5,004 nt of DNA from a virus (Duplodnaviria; Heunggongvirae; Uroviricota; Caudoviricetes). Below the pieces are notes generated by a model, which saw only the letters and a list, made by a program, of their open reading frames with translations, was not told the origin of the DNA and did no database searches. This document shows, piece after piece, positions 299-4,670 of this stretch (position 1 is its first letter; each line of letters begins with the position of its first letter). A program made the translations under genes and the position numbers. Location: the IMG/VR virus record IMGVR_UViG_3300014523_000031. One strand, written 5' to 3'.

Positions 299-414
299 NN
301 NNNNNNNNNNNNNNNNNNNNNNNNNNNNNNNNNNNNNNNNNNNNNNNNNNNNNNNNNNNNNNNNNNNNNNNNNNNNNNNNNNNNNNNNNNNNNNNNNNNN
401 NNNNNNNNNNNNNN
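299..414. other. Assembly gap (116 consecutive N)
   Basis: Direct observation of an N run; true length and content unknown. Confidence 0.99.
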
Positions 415-441: not shown

Positions 442-457
442 GCCAAAAATAAAGGCC
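442..457. repeat. 16-bp exact direct repeat gccaaaaataaaggcc, copy 1 (copy 2 at 968-983)
   Basis: Identical 16-mers at 442-457 and 968-983, each forming the U-tract and proximal stem of the terminator just 3' of a minus-strand accessory gene. Confidence 0.8.
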
Positions 458-470
458 GACTATGCGGCCT
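442..470 (-). terminator. Rho-independent terminator downstream of the 151-aa ORF
   Basis: On the minus strand: 6-bp GC-rich stem (plus 453-458 aggccg / 465-470 cggcct), 6-nt loop, then TTATTTTTGG (complement of plus 442-452). Sits 5 nt after the stop at 475. Confidence 0.6.
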
Positions 471-474
471 GAAA

Positions 475-930
475 TTACTTAACCAATGATGCTGCATATT
501 CGATAAGGTAAAGCTTTGGGGCCAGCCAAATTTTTAACCAAGTCATATTGGTTACTACACCAATAATAAAAAATCCCCACAGAGTCAAAACTCCAACCAA
601 TGGCATGATAAGAAGATTAATATCACCTTTGCTATCCCAAACCATTGTCGGCCTGTATTTGGGATTTCCTTTCTCCCATGAATATCCTTCATCACCGATT
701 TTACCTGTCTCAACTCTTTGGCACTGCTTCTTCATAAACCAGAAAACCAGTGGGATTGTTAGAATGGCGATGGCCATTAATGTTTTAATCAGACTGTCAA
801 CCATATTCCATAGCAGCAACTGATGAACAACATCAGGAATCTGTGCCTGGCTAAATGAAACAGCCGCGTCTATTCCATTACTGGCTTTTTGCAGTAGTTC
901 TACGAGAATCTTGTTTGCTTGTTCTTCCAT
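475..930 (-). CDS. Hypothetical small membrane protein, 151 aa, two predicted transmembrane segments; function unknown
   Basis: ATG 930 with AAGGTGA Shine-Dalgarno (complement of plus 934-940). Hydrophobic stretches LMAIAILTIPLVFWFM and LLIMPLVGVLTLWGFFIIGVV flank a charged loop. Has its own downstream terminator. The antisense ORF 548-823 looks compositionally junk-like. Confidence 0.75.
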   Translation of the reverse strand: MEEQANKILVELLQKASNGIDAAVSFSQAQIPDVVHQLLLWNMVDSLIKTLMAIAILTIPLVFWFMKKQCQRVETGKIGDEGYSWEKGNPKYRPTMVWDSKGDINLLIMPLVGVLTLWGFFIIGVVTNMTWLKIWLAPKLYLIEYAASLVK

Positions 931-970
931 ATATCACCTTGATTTTAATAAGCATGAAATTATTTACGGC
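921..970. repeat. About 50-bp imperfect direct repeat at the 5' boundary of the accessory genes, copy 1 (copy 2 at 1231-1280)
   Basis: Ungapped hand alignment of 921-970 against 1231-1280 gives 36 of 50 identical positions, in the same register relative to the two start codons (930 and 1240). Covers the first codons, the SD and about 40 nt upstream. Confidence 0.6.
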
Positions 971-999
971 CAAAAATAAAGGCCACCATCAGGCAGCCT
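968..999 (-). terminator. Probable rho-independent terminator downstream of the 83-aa ORF
   Basis: Minus-strand hairpin AAGGCUGCC-UGAU-GGUGGCCUU (9-bp stem with two G-U pairs) followed by UAUUUUUGG. Contains copy 2 of the 16-bp repeat and overlaps the stop codon at 989-991. Confidence 0.45.
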
Positions 1000-1240
1000 T
1001 GTTGTAAATGTTGCAGGTATCAAGTAAGTAATTAGATGGAGCGCCATAAATTATGAATTCATCGTTTGTCGGGTCCATCTCCATCTCTTGGCCTATTGCC
1101 ATTCTTGCGTCAGTGTCATCAGAGGCGAAGCATAAAACAGCCCACGCACCCATTGTTTTAAAAAGAACTGCAATTGGCTGTGGTTTTACTGAATTTGCGT
1201 TAGCGCGAAAATCACAAATCGCACTTTCATGAAATTCCAT
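989..1240 (-). CDS. Hypothetical soluble protein, 83 aa; function unknown
   Basis: ATG 1240 with GAGGTGAG Shine-Dalgarno (complement of plus 1244-1251). No hydrophobic segments. Sits between the tL1-like terminator and the 151-aa membrane protein gene. Confidence 0.65.
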   Translation of the reverse strand: MEFHESAICDFRANANSVKPQPIAVLFKTMGAWAVLCFASDDTDARMAIGQEMEMDPTNDEFIIYGAPSNYLLDTCNIYNKAA

Positions 1241-1280
1241 ATCTCACCTCAATCGTAATAAGCTGGAATTGATTTTCCGC
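1231..1280. repeat. Copy 2 of the 5'-boundary repeat (see 921-970)
   Basis: See copy 1; 36 of 50 identities by hand alignment. Confidence 0.6.
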
Positions 1281-1356
1281 GTTGCTTCTGGCGAGCAACA
1301 CAAGTCACACCCATTTCACTGCGTGGCTTGCTGTAATAAATTAGGTTAGTTCAGAC

Positions 1357-1379
1357 AATAAAAAACCCACCGAAGTGGG
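1357..1379 (-). terminator. Rho-independent terminator (tL1-like) in the leftward operon
   Basis: Minus-strand hairpin CCCAC-UUCG-GUGGG (plus 1366-1379) followed immediately by UUUUUUAUU (complement of plus 1357-1365). On the plus strand the T-run is displaced about 9 nt from the stem, so the minus orientation is favoured. Confidence 0.7.
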
Positions 1380-1435
1380 CTATGACCATTTTTTATTTGG
1401 ATTTCGTTGGTGAGCGTGATTAACAACTCTGTGCA

Positions 1436-1717
1436 TTACATCCTCATATTTTTCATCTTCAATTTTTCGACATTGCGAGGAAATGGTGTTGCTAATGCTT
1501 TGTCAACTTTGTCCATTGGTTCTTCATTAATCTTATATTCAGGACCGTCATCTATAGCATTAAATCCAGGTGTTACACCGTTTTTTAATGCATATGCTAT
1601 CCTTTTTTCCCATCTCGCTATTCTCCTCCTGTCTCGAGATGTAAGACCTCTATCAGATACTTTTCTGTTTTGTCCGCGGTCAGGATTAACATAAATAGTC
1701 TTTTTCACCATAAGCAT
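1436..1717 (-). CDS. Hypothetical basic protein, about 93 aa, immediately downstream of and coupled to N
   Basis: The ORF-track start at 1723 is a TTG codon. The first ATG (1717-1715) lies 2 nt after the N stop codon (1722-1720). Charged, arginine-rich composition (SRDRRRIARWEKR). Stop TAA 1436-1438. The antisense plus ORF 1407-1694 is low-complexity hydrophobic and rejected. Not recognised. Confidence 0.5.
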   Translation of the reverse strand: MLMVKKTIYVNPDRGQNRKVSDRGLTSRDRRRIARWEKRIAYALKNGVTPGFNAIDDGPEYKINEEPMDKVDKALATPFPRNVEKLKMKNMRM

Positions 1718-1719
1718 AC

Positions 1720-2025
1720 TCAATAAGCACCGTACGGTAGTTTACTGTACAATTTTATTTTTTGGACTGCATGTATTTTGTTTCCTAACGGGTTTGAATC
1801 TTTGTAATAAATACTTCTATTTTTTCGAACGACTTCTTCTTTCTTCTTGCAGCAAAGGCTTCCTAGTGATGCTGCTTTGTCTGCTCTGACGCAACCAGAG
1901 AGCTTTAGCGCAATTTTTCGCGCCAGTGCTTCATTACTGCGTCGATCGGCAATAAGTTCTGCTCTGCGAGCTTTGTAGCGGCTTTTTGCCGTACCTTTGG
2001 ATTCTTTCCAGACAATGGTTACCAT
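1720..2025 (-). CDS. N: Transcription antitermination protein N, phage-21-type arginine-rich motif
   Basis: Product MVTIVWKESKGTAKSRYKARRAELIADRR... carries the boxB-binding motif GTAKSRYKARRAELIA known from phage 21 N. AAGGAG Shine-Dalgarno 6 nt upstream of ATG 2025. The ORF-track start at 2055 adds 10 residues with no SD, so I place the start at 2025. Lies directly downstream of PL and nutL. Confidence 0.9.
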   Translation of the reverse strand: MVTIVWKESKGTAKSRYKARRAELIADRRSNEALARKIALKLSGCVRADKAASLGSLCCKKKEEVVRKNRSIYYKDSNPLGNKIHAVQKIKLYSKLPYGAY

Positions 2026-2135
2026 GATGGTCTCCTTTAAGTGGCTTTGGCGCATGACGCGTCGAGGTGCTTATCTTCTCGATCGCTGTCTTGCAGCTGC
2101 AATTCGCGCCATCCCCAAAACCACTCAAGTTCTGG

Positions 2136-3070: not shown

Positions 3071-3256
3071 ATGTACAAAAAAGATGTTATTGACCACTTC
3101 GGAACCCAGCGTGCTGTTGCTAAAGCACTAGGCATTAGCGATGCAGCAGTCTCTCAGTGGAAAGAAGTTATCCCAGAGAAAGACGCCTATCGATTGGAAA
3201 TCGTTACAGCTGGCGCCCTGAAGTATCAAGAAAGTGCTTACCGCCAAGCGGCATAA
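3071..3256 (+). CDS. cro: Cro repressor (P22 Cro-type), 61 aa
   Basis: GGAG Shine-Dalgarno at 3060-3063, ATG 3071. HTH segment QRAVAKALGISDAAVSQW. Sequence matches my recollection of P22 Cro. First gene after PR. Confidence 0.95.
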   Translation: MYKKDVIDHFGTQRAVAKALGISDAAVSQWKEVIPEKDAYRLEIVTAGALKYQESAYRQAA

Positions 3257-3349: not shown

Positions 3350-3394
3350 ATCAATATAGGAAAATTAACAAATGGCACAAGCAAGCTACAGCAA
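3350..3394 (-). promoter_or_regulatory. Candidate PRE (establishment promoter) with a CII-binding direct repeat TTGC-N6-TTGC
   Basis: Minus strand reads TTGCTGTAGCTTGC (complement of plus 3381-3394), the canonical CII recognition geometry. It lies within the first codons of cII and points leftward toward cro and cI, as in lambda. The -10 element is not well defined. Confidence 0.55.
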
Positions 3395-3668
3395 GCCAAC
3401 ACAGCGAGAAATTGATCGCGCTGAAACTGATTTACTCATCAACCTGTCAACGCTTACCCAGCGCGGTCTGGCAAAGATGATTGGCTGTCATGAATCGAAG
3501 ATAAGCAGAACGGACTGGAGATTTATTGCTTCGGTCTTGTGTGCTTTCGGAATGGCATCAGACATCAGTCCGATTAGCAGGGCTTTTAAGTATGCGCTTG
3601 ATGAAATCACAAAGAAAAAATCCCCGGCCGCCACCGAGGATTTTAAGCAAATTGATATGCAATTCTGA
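3372..3668 (+). CDS. cII: CII-family transcriptional activator (lambda CII / P22 C1 analog), 98 aa
   Basis: C-terminal KKKSPAATEDFKQIDMQF parallels the lambda CII C-terminus (NKKRPAATERSEQIQMEF as I recall it). HTH-like segment TQRGLAKMIGCHESKISR. AGGA Shine-Dalgarno upstream of ATG 3372. Located after cro and nutR. Confidence 0.9.
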   Translation: MAQASYSKPTQREIDRAETDLLINLSTLTQRGLAKMIGCHESKISRTDWRFIASVLCAFGMASDISPISRAFKYALDEITKKKSPAATEDFKQIDMQF

Positions 3669-3700: not shown

Positions 3701-3862
3701 ATGACAAAACGTCGTAAGAAATACCAGGAAAAAGAAGAGATTCGACACCCTGATTCACCTGAGGGATTAGTGGTAGCCGCAGCAAATAACAGGGCGTTCG
3801 CAGAGCGCCTTGTTGGTGTTTACAGACTAGCCAAAGCAGGGGTGAAACATGGGCGTCGTTAA
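3701..3862 (+). CDS. Possible small ORF, 53 aa, basic N-terminus ([53 protein letters not shown])
   Basis: AGGAG Shine-Dalgarno at 3691-3695 with 5-nt spacing to ATG 3701. Stop TAA 3860-3862 overlaps the start of the O-like gene by 14 nt in another frame. Absent from the ORF track because of size. Not recognised. Confidence 0.4.
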   Translation: MTKRRKKYQEKEEIRHPDSPEGLVVAAANNRAFAERLVGVYRLAKAGVKHGRR

Positions 3863-4670
3863 GTTAGCTGATTACAGGCCTCAACTGGAGGTCGTGGAGC
3901 ATCGCGTGGCAGATACCGAAGATGGTTTCATGCGCGTTGCTAACGAGATTATCGACAGTCTGCTGATGGCTGATTTAACCGTCCGGCAGTTGAAGGTGAT
4001 GCTCGCTATCATGCGCAAGACATACGGATTCAATAAGCCGATGGATCGACTCACAAACACGCAGATAGCAGCCATGACAGGTATTCATCACACTCATGTT
4101 TGCGCTGCCAAGCGCCAGCTTATCGAGCGTAAATTCCTCATTGCTGATGGCGTGAAAATCGGAGTGAACAAGGTGGTTTCTCAGTGGATTAGCCAGGACA
4201 GCTTAACATTAGCTAAAACAGCTAATAAAACATTAGCCAAGTCGGCTAATGGGTATAAGCCAAGTCAGCTAAACACAAAAGACAATATACAAAAGACAAT
4301 AAATACAAATACCCCCTTACCCCCTAACGGGGGCGGCGATGGGCAGGTTAAACCTGAACGTCGCAAGGCAGAACGAATCGACTACGAATCCTTCCTGAGC
4401 GCCTACAACGCCGAAGTCGGTGACAGACTTCCACACGCTGTTGCGGTCAACGAGAAACGCAAACGCCGCCTGAAGAAAATCATCCCGCAACTGAAAACGC
4501 CAAACGTGGACGGTTTCAGAGCGTATGTCAGGGCGTTTGTACATCAGGCCAAGCCGTTTTACTTCGGAGACAACGACACTGGCTGGACGGCAGATTTTGA
4601 TTACCTGCTGAGGGAAGATTCGTTAACGGGAGTACGGGAAGGGAAGTTTGCAGACAGGGGGATTGCATGA
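3849..4670 (+). CDS. Replication initiation protein, lambda O / P22 gp18 type
   Basis: 273 aa. N-terminal region ([56 protein letters not shown]...) has the hallmarks of the phage O N-terminal DNA-binding domain. Low-complexity linker ([13 protein letters not shown]) coincides with ori-like iterons in the DNA. Stop TGA overlaps the ATG of the downstream helicase (ATGA at 4667-4670). Confidence 0.9.
4187..4273. repeat. ori-like iterons: four copies of an approximately 20-bp repeat with internal dyad symmetry, inside the O-like gene
   Basis: Copies start at about 4187, 4207, 4231 and 4254, with a core near ATTAGCCAAGTCGGCTAA. The best copy is TTAGCC-AAGTC-GGCTAA at 4233-4249, whose two arms are reverse complements. 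Copies 3 and 4 share 16 of 20 positions by hand alignment. Confidence 0.7.
4274..4333. promoter_or_regulatory. A-rich tract and GC palindrome following the iterons (putative origin unwinding region)
   Basis: 4274-4312 is strongly A-rich on the plus strand and contains a 12-bp direct repeat caaaagacaata (4276-4287 and 4290-4301). It is followed by the palindrome CCCCC-TAAC-GGGGG at 4320-4333. This mirrors the iteron / AT-rich / palindrome layout of lambda ori. Confidence 0.6.

What the first reader, a model, noticed from the sequence alone, without database searches (positions are those of the whole stretch)
989..1240. 83-aa soluble protein of unknown function next to the membrane protein
Acidic and Cys-containing (MEFHESAICDFRANANSVKPQPIAVLFKTMGAWAVLCFASDDTDARMAIGQEMEMDPTNDEFIIYGAPSNYLLDTCNIYNKAA), with strong RBS and its own terminator. 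It is the first gene after tL1, the position of ral-like restriction-alleviation genes in lambda. It could be a partner or regulator of the downstream membrane protein, or an independent anti-restriction factor.
Basis: inference. Interest (0 to 1): 0.5.

Follow-up and report, generated by a model that had tools for sequence, protein, structure and literature searches.

The report
Uncharacterised phage gene in ral slot
This is a real, conserved 83-residue early gene of lambda-like prophages that sits exactly where phage lambda keeps its anti-restriction gene ral, but its function is still unknown, it has already been catalogued and screened without a reported effect, and it is not a partner of the neighbouring membrane protein.

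Summary
The ORF at 989-1240 (minus strand) is a genuine protein-coding gene. dN/dS is 0.06-0.25 in its own frame only. It has a strong ribosome-binding site, and its terminator overlaps the stop codon. It belongs to PHROG 2471 (VT2-Sakai orf20, mEp234 gp34). This is a tiny enterobacterial lambdoid family with no Pfam, NCBIfam, PADLOC, PDB or fold match.

DNA alignments show the cassette replaces lambda's orf28-ral exactly. It keeps the same 5' linker (a relic of the N gene's 3' end, the RBS and ATG GAA) and the same last codons plus terminator. Every homologue examined lies directly after N.

The partner idea fails: the downstream gene varies, and both genes lie together in only 5 of 5,426 E. 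coli genomes.

Published RNA-seq of the Gally prophage shows the gene is low in lysogens and rises with N. That fits a pL early gene rather than a moron.

A 99%-identical orthologue (orf60) was among 200 accessory genes screened by Silas et al. No phenotype was reported for it. In the lambda/EcoKI assay only ral, ocr and ardA scored.

My best guess is a narrow-specificity early accessory protein involved in phage-host conflict. This is ordinary and already catalogued.

The parts
989..1240 (-). 83-aa CDS (ORF83); PHROG 2471; orthologue of VT2-Sakai orf20 (NP_050519), mEp234 gp34 (AFM76313.1, orf60 of Silas et al.) and Gally GALLYPH_31 (LF82_105)
   Evidence: ORF list. PHROG full-length match, E=2.9e-61. 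98.8% identity in 54 phage records. Purifying selection in this frame only.
1241..1280 (-). 5' cassette linker: leader plus ribosome-binding site (GAGGTGA). Together with the first two codons (ATG GAA) it is shared with the orf28-ral and orf184 cassettes, and it is repeated upstream of the neighbouring 151-aa gene.
   Evidence: Alignments. Direct repeat D1, 1235-1280 vs 925-970, 76% over 46 nt.
1249..1347 (-). Relic of the last ~32 codons plus stop of a lambdoid N gene (NLIYYSKPRSEMGVTCVARQKQRGKSIPAYYD*). Its stop codon overlaps the ORF83 RBS. In Gally and EC100 the same sequence is the live 3' end of N.
   Evidence: Translation. Alignment with the N proteins of EC100 and Gally. DNA alignment.
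969..1000 (-). Intrinsic terminator overlapping the ORF83 stop codon (AAGGCTGCCTGATGGTGGCCTT + TATTTTTGG). It is the same terminator, with the same last four codons (NKAA*), that ends lambda ral.
   Evidence: Terminator scan. Alignments with lambda and EC100. Repeat D2, 964-984 vs 437-457.
1364..1381 (-). N-modified transcription from pL would have to read through it to reach ORF83.
   Evidence: Terminator scan. No promoter-like site between it and the ORF.
1436..1723 (-). Nun-like transcription termination factor gene, between N and ORF83 (context, not part of the cassette)
   Evidence: PHROG 5632, E=5.4e-49. The same N-Nun arrangement is annotated in mEp235 and mEpX1.
1720..2055 (-). N-like antiterminator gene whose C-terminus diverges after '...IYY' (context)
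   Evidence: PHROG 271, E=1.8e-31. Weak Pfam N_peptide match. Alignment.
475..930 (-). 151-aa two-TM protein (PHROG 3054, Sf6 gp34 family). It is a separate cassette with the same type of boundaries, not an obligate partner.
453..470 (-). Terminator of the 151-aa cassette (variant AGGCCGCATAGTCGGCCT + TTATTTTTGG). The same variant ends the orf184 cassette of mEp213.

Best explanation
ORF83 is a non-essential accessory cassette of the leftward early (pL) operon of lambdoid phages. It occupies the hypervariable slot directly behind the antiterminator gene N.

Shown:
- It is a real gene under purifying selection.
- It has no promoter-like site of its own, so it would be transcribed from pL once N allows read-through of the upstream terminator.
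- It is an allelic alternative to lambda's orf28-ral, and to orf184 of mEp213. The cassettes are exchanged between unrelated lambdoid lineages by recombination in two short shared linkers: the relic 3' end of N with the RBS and ATG GAA, and the last codons plus terminator.
- It assorts independently of the downstream membrane-protein gene.

Inferred:
- The product is a 9-kDa acidic alpha/beta protein with no catalytic motif. It most likely acts early in the lytic cycle by binding and neutralising, or otherwise modulating, one host or competitor-phage factor.
- That would make it a narrow-specificity 'conflict' protein of the same functional class as its slot-mates Ral (which modulates type I R-M) and orf184 (which is sensed by the gop-beta-cII abortive system).
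- It is not a Ral homologue and probably does not alleviate EcoKI restriction.
For: - Coding and selected: dN/dS 0.06-0.26 in frame only.
- Family: PHROG 2471 over the full length. It is in 56 phage records spanning Sepvirinae (Stx phages), Hendrixvirinae (mEp234, HK633) and Lederbergvirus (Gally), and in roughly 350 of 5,426 complete E. coli genomes.
- Always directly after N, including the 70-84%-identical homologues from Enterobacter and metagenomes.
- Exact replacement of orf28-ral with shared 5' and 3' linkers. orf184 uses the same 5' linker and a sister terminator.
- ORF83, orf28-ral and orf184 are mutually exclusive across the 19 loci held.
- No promoter-like site upstream.
- In LF82, the Gally orthologue LF82_105 is near prophage background in LB (about 17 normalised, against 727 for the repressor). 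It rises with N and the rest of the left operon in macrophages (log2FC 2.1, q=2.7e-4). The authors found no morons in Gally (PMC9928086).
- Silas et al. treat the region that holds ral as an accessory region rich in counter-defence genes and abortive-infection triggers, and picked this very gene (orf60) as one of their 200 accessory genes (bioRxiv 10.1101/2023.04.06.535777).
- Small acidic soluble protein, pI 4.24.
Against: - There is no direct functional evidence.
- In the Silas et al. pooled screens (about 20 E. coli hosts; lambda, P1 and T phages) orf60 is not among the genes listed as giving any phenotype. In the MG1655/lambda assay the noted hits were ardA, ral and ocr.
- The structure model is only moderately confident: the best model has pLDDT 71.6, the other four 45-56.
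- Guilt by position is weak here, because the same N-to-cIII region also holds exclusion genes (sieB, nun) and genes of unrelated roles (ea10, cIII).
Confidence: 0.45

Rival explanations
1. A functional analogue of Ral: it alleviates restriction by type I R-M systems, either by enhancing methylation of unmodified DNA or by blocking the nuclease.
For: Exactly the same slot, RBS, terminal codons and terminator as orf28-ral. Mutually exclusive with ral in the loci held. Expressed early from pL. Acidic, like the DNA-mimic anti-restriction proteins.
Against: No Ral Pfam match. hhalign probability against Ral is 0.08%. Ral is basic with four clustered Cys, whereas ORF83 is acidic with two distant invariant Cys. 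In the pooled MG1655 + lambda screen that included orf60, the notes record ardA, ral and ocr as the hits, and orf60 is absent from the phenotype list. Net charge is only about -7, and the predicted alpha/beta sandwich is unlike Ocr or ArdA.
Confidence: 0.08
2. A partner or regulator of the adjacent 151-aa membrane protein (a two-gene module).
For: Adjacent and co-oriented here and in Gally. A 48%-identical member of the membrane family follows ORF83 in HK633 and ETEC1720. Both genes rise together in macrophages.
Against: Each gene has its own RBS and its own terminator. Only 5 of 5,426 genomes carry both contiguously, while about 19 of 40 evenly spaced listing rows are ORF83 alone. ORF83 is followed by ea10, an Sf6 gp33-like gene, a P22_Y8K6 gene or small ORFs elsewhere. 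The membrane gene pairs with ral instead (H152, H153), and its family is in 181 phage records, including Vibrio, Klebsiella and Pseudomonas phages that lack ORF83.
Confidence: 0.04
3. A moron: a lysogen-expressed exclusion or defence gene that protects the host against other phages, like sieB or nun in the same region.
For: Bracketed by terminators on both sides, as morons often are. The same region holds sieB in lambda and a Nun-like gene here.
Against: No promoter-like site between the upstream terminator and the ORF. In most phages the ORF starts 8-60 nt after N, which leaves little or no room for a promoter. RNA-seq of LF82 found no morons in Gally, and LF82_105 is at prophage background in LB. 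No superinfection-exclusion hit was reported for orf60. No PADLOC match.
Confidence: 0.1
4. A phage-internal or host-physiology modulator unrelated to immunity. Examples would be tuning the lysis-lysogeny decision, N or CII stability, host proteases, or cell division, in the way of cIII and kil further down the same operon.
For: Tight linkage to N across divergent homologues. Same operon as cIII, kil and gam. The absence of any counter-defence phenotype in the published screen fits this reading.
Against: It is combined with at least four unrelated N alleles and with different immunity regions, so it is not N-specific. It is interchangeable with ral and orf184, which are not regulators of the phage programme. 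It is absent from many lambdoid phages, so it is dispensable.
Confidence: 0.25

Closest known systems
VT2-Sakai orf20 (NP_050519) / mEp234 gp34 (AFM76313.1, 'orf60' of Silas et al. 2023) / PHROG 2471
   Same: The same protein family. Identity is 98.8% over all 83 residues, the position is the same (directly after N) and so are the linkers.
   Different: Essentially nothing. The window copy has S40 where most have A40, and it is separated from N by an inserted Nun-like gene and its terminator.
Lambda orf28-ral cassette (Ral, Pfam PF11058: restriction alleviation and modification enhancement for type IA R-M)
   Same: The same genomic slot. Shared RBS plus ATG GAA at the 5' end, and shared codons N-K-A-A-stop plus terminator at the 3' end. 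Both are early pL genes and both are dispensable accessory cassettes.
   Different: No sequence or profile similarity. One 83-aa acidic protein replaces a 28-aa acidic peptide plus a 66-aa basic Cys-rich protein. No EcoKI phenotype was reported for the orthologue in a screen where ral scored.
orf184 of Silas et al. (mEp213_045, AFM76385.1): an accessory gene in the ral accessory region that triggers the gop-beta-cII abortive-infection system
   Same: The same N-to-cIII accessory region, the same 5' linker (CCACTTATTTGAGGTGATATATGGAA) and a sister terminator. It is also acidic and also starts ME... and ends ...KAA.
   Different: Unrelated sequence (hhalign probability 1.9%). It is 107 aa and has a reported phenotype, whereas orf60/ORF83 has none.
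Small acidic anti-defence proteins (Ocr, ArdA and many Acr proteins)
   Same: Small, acidic, expressed early, no enzymatic motifs, narrow taxonomic range.

Membership tests
PHROG 2471 / VT2-Sakai orf20 family | Full-length match to the family profile | tested here: met
   E=2.9e-61, residues 1-83 on profile positions 1-83 of 83. 98.8% identity to NP_050519 and others.
PHROG 2471 / VT2-Sakai orf20 family | Location directly downstream of the N antiterminator in a lambdoid early-left operon | tested here: met
   In the window a Nun-like gene intervenes, but a relic of the N 3' end still abuts the ORF.
Ral (Pfam PF11058, antirestriction protein Ral) | Sequence match to the Ral family model | tested here: not met
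   No Pfam family at E<=1. No NCBIfam match. hhalign against lambda Ral gives probability 0.08%.
Ral (Pfam PF11058, antirestriction protein Ral) | Alleviation of type IA (EcoKI/EcoBI) restriction, or enhancement of modification | not testable with these tools
   Published pooled screen with the 99%-identical orf60: the hits noted for lambda on MG1655 were ardA, ral and ocr (bioRxiv 10.1101/2023.04.06.535777), and orf60 is not in the phenotype list. This is negative but not a dedicated assay.
Ral (Pfam PF11058, antirestriction protein Ral) | Genomic position: early pL operon after N, ending at the ral terminator | tested here: met
   Alignments with lambda and with the EC100 prophage.
Moron (autonomously expressed prophage cargo gene) | Own promoter upstream and own terminator downstream | tested here: not met
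   A terminator is present, but there is no promoter-like site between 1241 and 1364. In most relatives the ORF starts 8-60 nt after N.
Moron (autonomously expressed prophage cargo gene) | Expression in the lysogen above prophage background | not testable with these tools
Two-gene module with the 151-aa membrane protein (PHROG 3054) | Consistent co-occurrence and adjacency of the two genes | tested here: not met
   Contiguous in 5 of 5,426 E. coli genomes. ORF83 is alone in about half of the evenly spaced listing rows. The membrane gene also sits next to ral, and occurs in phages without ORF83.
Known anti-phage defence proteins (PADLOC-DB) | Match to any defence-system protein model | tested here: not met
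   No family at E<=1.

The most novel reading that the evidence does not exclude
ORF83 is a specific inhibitor, or a sensed trigger, of a host immune system that was not represented in the hosts and phages screened so far. One candidate would be a system typical of the EHEC and other strains that carry these prophages. It would act by direct binding through a previously undescribed small alpha/beta fold. The ral slot would then be a reusable 'plug-in socket' for counter-defence cassettes with standardised linkers.
Probability: 0.25. Interest if true: 0.55.

Novelty: already known. Interest (0 to 1): 0.28.

Why it matters
The gene sits in the Stx2 prophages of E. coli O157:H7, in the Gally prophage of the Crohn's-associated strain LF82, and in roughly 7% of complete E. 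coli genomes, yet it has no assigned function. Showing that it is a precise allelic substitute for orf28-ral, bounded by reusable linkers, turns a vague 'hypothetical protein' into a concrete swap experiment. It also documents how accessory cassettes are shuffled behind N. If it proved to be a counter-defence factor, it would add a new small-protein inhibitor and possibly reveal its target. As things stand it is an ordinary, already catalogued accessory gene with a negative first screen.

Tried and rejected
- Profile libraries. Pfam, NCBIfam and PADLOC gave nothing. PHROGs gave only an unknown-function family.
- Word-indexed protein search. It returned 16 hits, all enterobacterial, and the full-length ones are >=70% identical.
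- Exhaustive HMMER search of 1.8 billion representatives with a family profile. It found only two real 50%-identity clusters plus fragments. Three giant repetitive proteins (P0017, P0020, P0021) scored only by summing many weak repeat matches, so I rejected them as artefacts.
- PDB sequence search. Best E=0.055 to 0.5, including a MAP3K2 PB1 domain; not significant.
- AlphaFold2. With 7 sequences pLDDT was 52. With 11 sequences the best model reached 71.6 and pTM 0.60, but the other four models stayed at 45-56.
- hhalign against Ral and against orf184: no relationship.
- Rfam on the whole window: nothing credible.
- Literature searches by accession, by VT2-Sap20 and by peptide string in main texts found nothing. 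The peptide string did turn up in a supplement of Silas et al.. The Nat Commun follow-up (PMC12373910) mentions neither orf60 nor its sequence.
- I considered a HicB-like or PB1-like fold from the beta-hairpin-helix pattern, and dropped both for lack of any significant score.

Full report
**Context.** The window is the immunity and early region of a lambdoid prophage. On the plus strand lie a P22-type cro (3071-3256), cII (3372-3668), a replication protein O (3849-4670) and the start of a DnaB-type helicase (4667 onward). On the minus strand lies a LexA-type repressor (2990-2340). Leftward from the repressor come:
- an N-like antiterminator (2055-1720; PHROG 271, E=1.8e-31);
- a Nun-like termination factor (1723-1436; PHROG 5632, E=5.4e-49);
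- an intrinsic terminator (1381-1364);
- the 83-aa ORF (1240-989) and a terminator (1000-979);
- a 151-aa protein (930-475; PHROG 3054) and a terminator (470-453);
- a masked run of N (299-414);
- cIII (244-74).

The ORF, its translation, the GAGGTGA ribosome-binding site and the hairpin plus T-run overlapping the stop codon are all as described. The protein is 9.2 kDa, has pI 4.24 and has no hydrophobic segment long enough to span a membrane. It is a real gene. Against homologues of 70-84% identity from an Enterobacter genome and from metagenomes, dN/dS is 0.06-0.26 in the annotated frame and about 0.7-5 in the other two. Differences concentrate at third codon positions (for example 16, 10 and 41 at positions 1, 2 and 3).

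**What family it is.** It matches PHROG 2471 (function unknown) end to end, with E=2.9e-61. Nothing matches in Pfam, NCBIfam or PADLOC. tblastn finds it in 56 phage records, 54 of them at 95-99% identity. These include:
- VT2-Sakai (orf20, NP_050519) and many Stx1/Stx2 phages of O157:H7;
- HK106, HK633 and mEp234;
- the P22-like phage Gally of strain LF82.

The family is very small. The 5.8-billion-protein search gave 16 hits. An exhaustive profile search of 1.8 billion representatives gave only two genuine 50%-identity clusters plus fragments. Three giant repetitive proteins scored only through many summed weak repeat matches, and I disregard them. About 19 of 40 evenly spaced rows of a megablast listing of 762 matching records carry the ORF alone. 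This extrapolates to roughly 350 of 5,426 complete E. coli genomes.

**Anatomy of the slot: the main result.** When only the flanks of the ORF matched in E. coli genomes, the gene lying between them was annotated 'antirestriction Ral family protein'. I aligned the window with lambda itself, the EC100 prophage, VT2-Sakai and mEp234. The alignments show that the ORF83 cassette and the lambda orf28-ral cassette share two boundaries:
- a 5' boundary, ...CCACTTATTTGAGGTGA(G/T)ATATGGAA, which is the RBS plus the first two codons;
- a 3' boundary, ACAACAAGGCTGCCTGATGGTGGCCTTTATTTTTGGC, which is the last four codons N-K-A-A, the stop and the terminator.

Between these boundaries the sequences are unrelated.

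The 5' boundary is the 3' end of an N gene. In EC100 and Gally it encodes the live C-terminus of N (...YSKPRSEMGVTCVGRQKMKLGSKPLI*), whose stop codon overlaps the RBS. In the window the same stretch (1347-1249) survives as a relic, NLIYYSKPRSEMGVTCVARQKQRGKSIPAYYD*. It lies downstream of the Nun terminator, and the resident N diverges right after '...IYY'.

A third cassette uses the same 5' linker and a sister terminator. [quoted passage not shown] Within the window, the 151-aa gene has the same kind of boundaries. Direct repeats link 925-970 with 1235-1280 (76% over 46 nt) and 437-457 with 964-984 (90% over 21 nt).

**Linkage.** In every locus examined the ORF is the first gene after N. N alleles of at least four kinds and different immunity regions are involved. 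The gene downstream varies:
- orf19/ea10 in VT2-Sakai;
- an Sf6 gp33-like gene in mEp234;
- a P22_Y8K6-family gene or small ORFs in the divergent loci;
- the 151-aa membrane protein only here and in Gally, with a 48%-identical family member in HK633 and ETEC1720.

Only 5 of 5,426 genomes carry ORF83 and this membrane gene contiguously. The membrane gene is also found right after ral (H152, H153). Its family is present in 181 phage records, including Vibrio, Klebsiella and Pseudomonas phages. The 'partner' hypothesis is therefore not supported.

**Expression.** No promoter-like site lies between the upstream terminator and the ORF. In most relatives the ORF begins 8-60 nt after N, so transcription must come from pL with N-mediated read-through. 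Published RNA-seq supports this for the Gally prophage of LF82, which carries N, then ORF83, then the membrane gene, at 98% identity. The authors found no moron in Gally. LF82_105 (GALLYPH_31) is at about 17 normalised units in LB against 727 for the repressor. In macrophages it rises together with N and the membrane gene: log2FC 2.11, 3.27 and 3.04 (PMC9928086).

**Function.** Sequence and structure give no handle.
- The profile search against PDB sequences is non-significant.
- AlphaFold2 gives a beta-alpha-beta-beta-alpha-beta-alpha model. The best model has pLDDT 71.6, but the other four are poor.
- hhalign finds no relationship to Ral or to orf184.

The most relevant external evidence comes from Silas et al. 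(bioRxiv 10.1101/2023.04.06.535777). Their Supplementary File 3 lists AFM76313.1 of mEp234, which is 82/83 identical to the window protein, as UDP0060, one of the 200 synthesised accessory genes. The paper's list of 'all AGs that produced phenotypes' does not contain orf60. The experimental notes for lambda on MG1655 (EcoKI+) record 'ardA, ral, ocr are hits'. This is negative evidence against a Ral-like EcoKI alleviator. It comes from pooled screens in about 20 hosts, so it does not exclude a narrower target.

**Best explanation.**
- Shown: ORF83 is an N-dependent early accessory cassette, interchangeable with orf28-ral and orf184 through standard linkers. It is under purifying selection, dispensable, and independent of the neighbouring membrane gene.
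- Inferred (about 0.45): it is a small binding protein that neutralises or modulates one host or competitor factor during early lytic growth. That would make it a narrow-specificity conflict protein like its slot-mates.
- Rivals: a non-immune modulator of the phage programme or of host physiology (0.25); a lysogen-expressed exclusion gene (0.10); a true Ral analogue (0.08); a partner of the membrane protein (0.04).

**Novelty and interest.** The family, its position and its status as an accessory gene are already in the databases and in a published screen, and only its function is open. The precise cassette architecture is a tidy example of linker-mediated mosaicism rather than a new principle. 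Interest is low to moderate.

Noticed in passing
window 1249-1347 (minus strand): A relic of the last ~32 codons and stop of a lambdoid N gene (NLIYYSKPRSEMGVTCVARQKQRGKSIPAYYD*) lies after the Nun terminator and directly abuts the ORF83 RBS. The resident N (2055-1720) diverges from other N proteins right after '...IYY'. This suggests the Nun module was recombined into the 3' end of N.
   Followed up: yes
window 1436-1723 (minus strand): A Nun-like transcription termination factor gene (PHROG 5632, profile positions 1-88 of 112) sits immediately downstream of, and overlaps by 4 nt, an N-like antiterminator gene. The same N + Nun pair is annotated in mEp235 and mEpX1. Whether one phage uses both an N and a Nun was not examined.
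   Followed up: partly
window 925-970 vs 1235-1280, and 437-457 vs 964-984: The two adjacent cassettes (ORF83 and the 151-aa gene) are bracketed by the same boundary sequences. The leader, RBS and ATG GAA are 76% identical over 46 nt, and the terminator T-run is 90% identical over 21 nt. The terminator variant after the 151-aa gene is the one that ends orf184 in mEp213.
   Followed up: yes
window 475-930 (minus strand): The 151-aa protein has two hydrophobic segments (about 44-66 and 104-130) and belongs to PHROG 3054 (Sf6 gene 34 family). The family reaches Vibrio, Klebsiella, Pseudomonas and Campylobacter phages. In the 48-49%-identical variants (for example SPN9CC AEW47744.1, orf47 of the Silas screen) the first ~34 and last ~21 residues are nearly identical to the window protein, while the middle is replaced.
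   Followed up: partly
window 299-414: A run of 116 N between the terminator region of the 151-aa gene and cIII. This looks like masked or unresolved sequence, so whatever lies there (in relatives, ea10-like or other small genes) cannot be read.
   Followed up: no
L005 2524-2618 and L015 1524-1609 (E. coli ACN001 and PSS-04 prophages): In these two prophages ral is internally deleted: only residues ~1-16 and 46-66 remain, next to an intact orf28. The ral slot can therefore also decay in place.
   Followed up: partly
L003 3001-3390 (phage HK633): The HK633 copy of ORF83 has lost its stop codon (...NKAADGGLYFLAV...). It reads through the terminator into the next cassette and is annotated as a 129-aa protein.
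   Followed up: partly
proteins P0017, P0020, P0021: Three giant repetitive proteins (1,357-3,126 aa, with 3-44 matched stretches) reached E-values as low as 3e-50 against the ORF83 profile. They did so only by accumulating weak hits to a hydrophobic beta-hairpin-like repeat. This is a caution for profile searches with short queries.
   Followed up: yes
window 3701-3862 (plus strand): A 53-aa basic ORF between cII and the O gene, overlapping the start of O by 14 nt, has no Pfam match.
   Followed up: no
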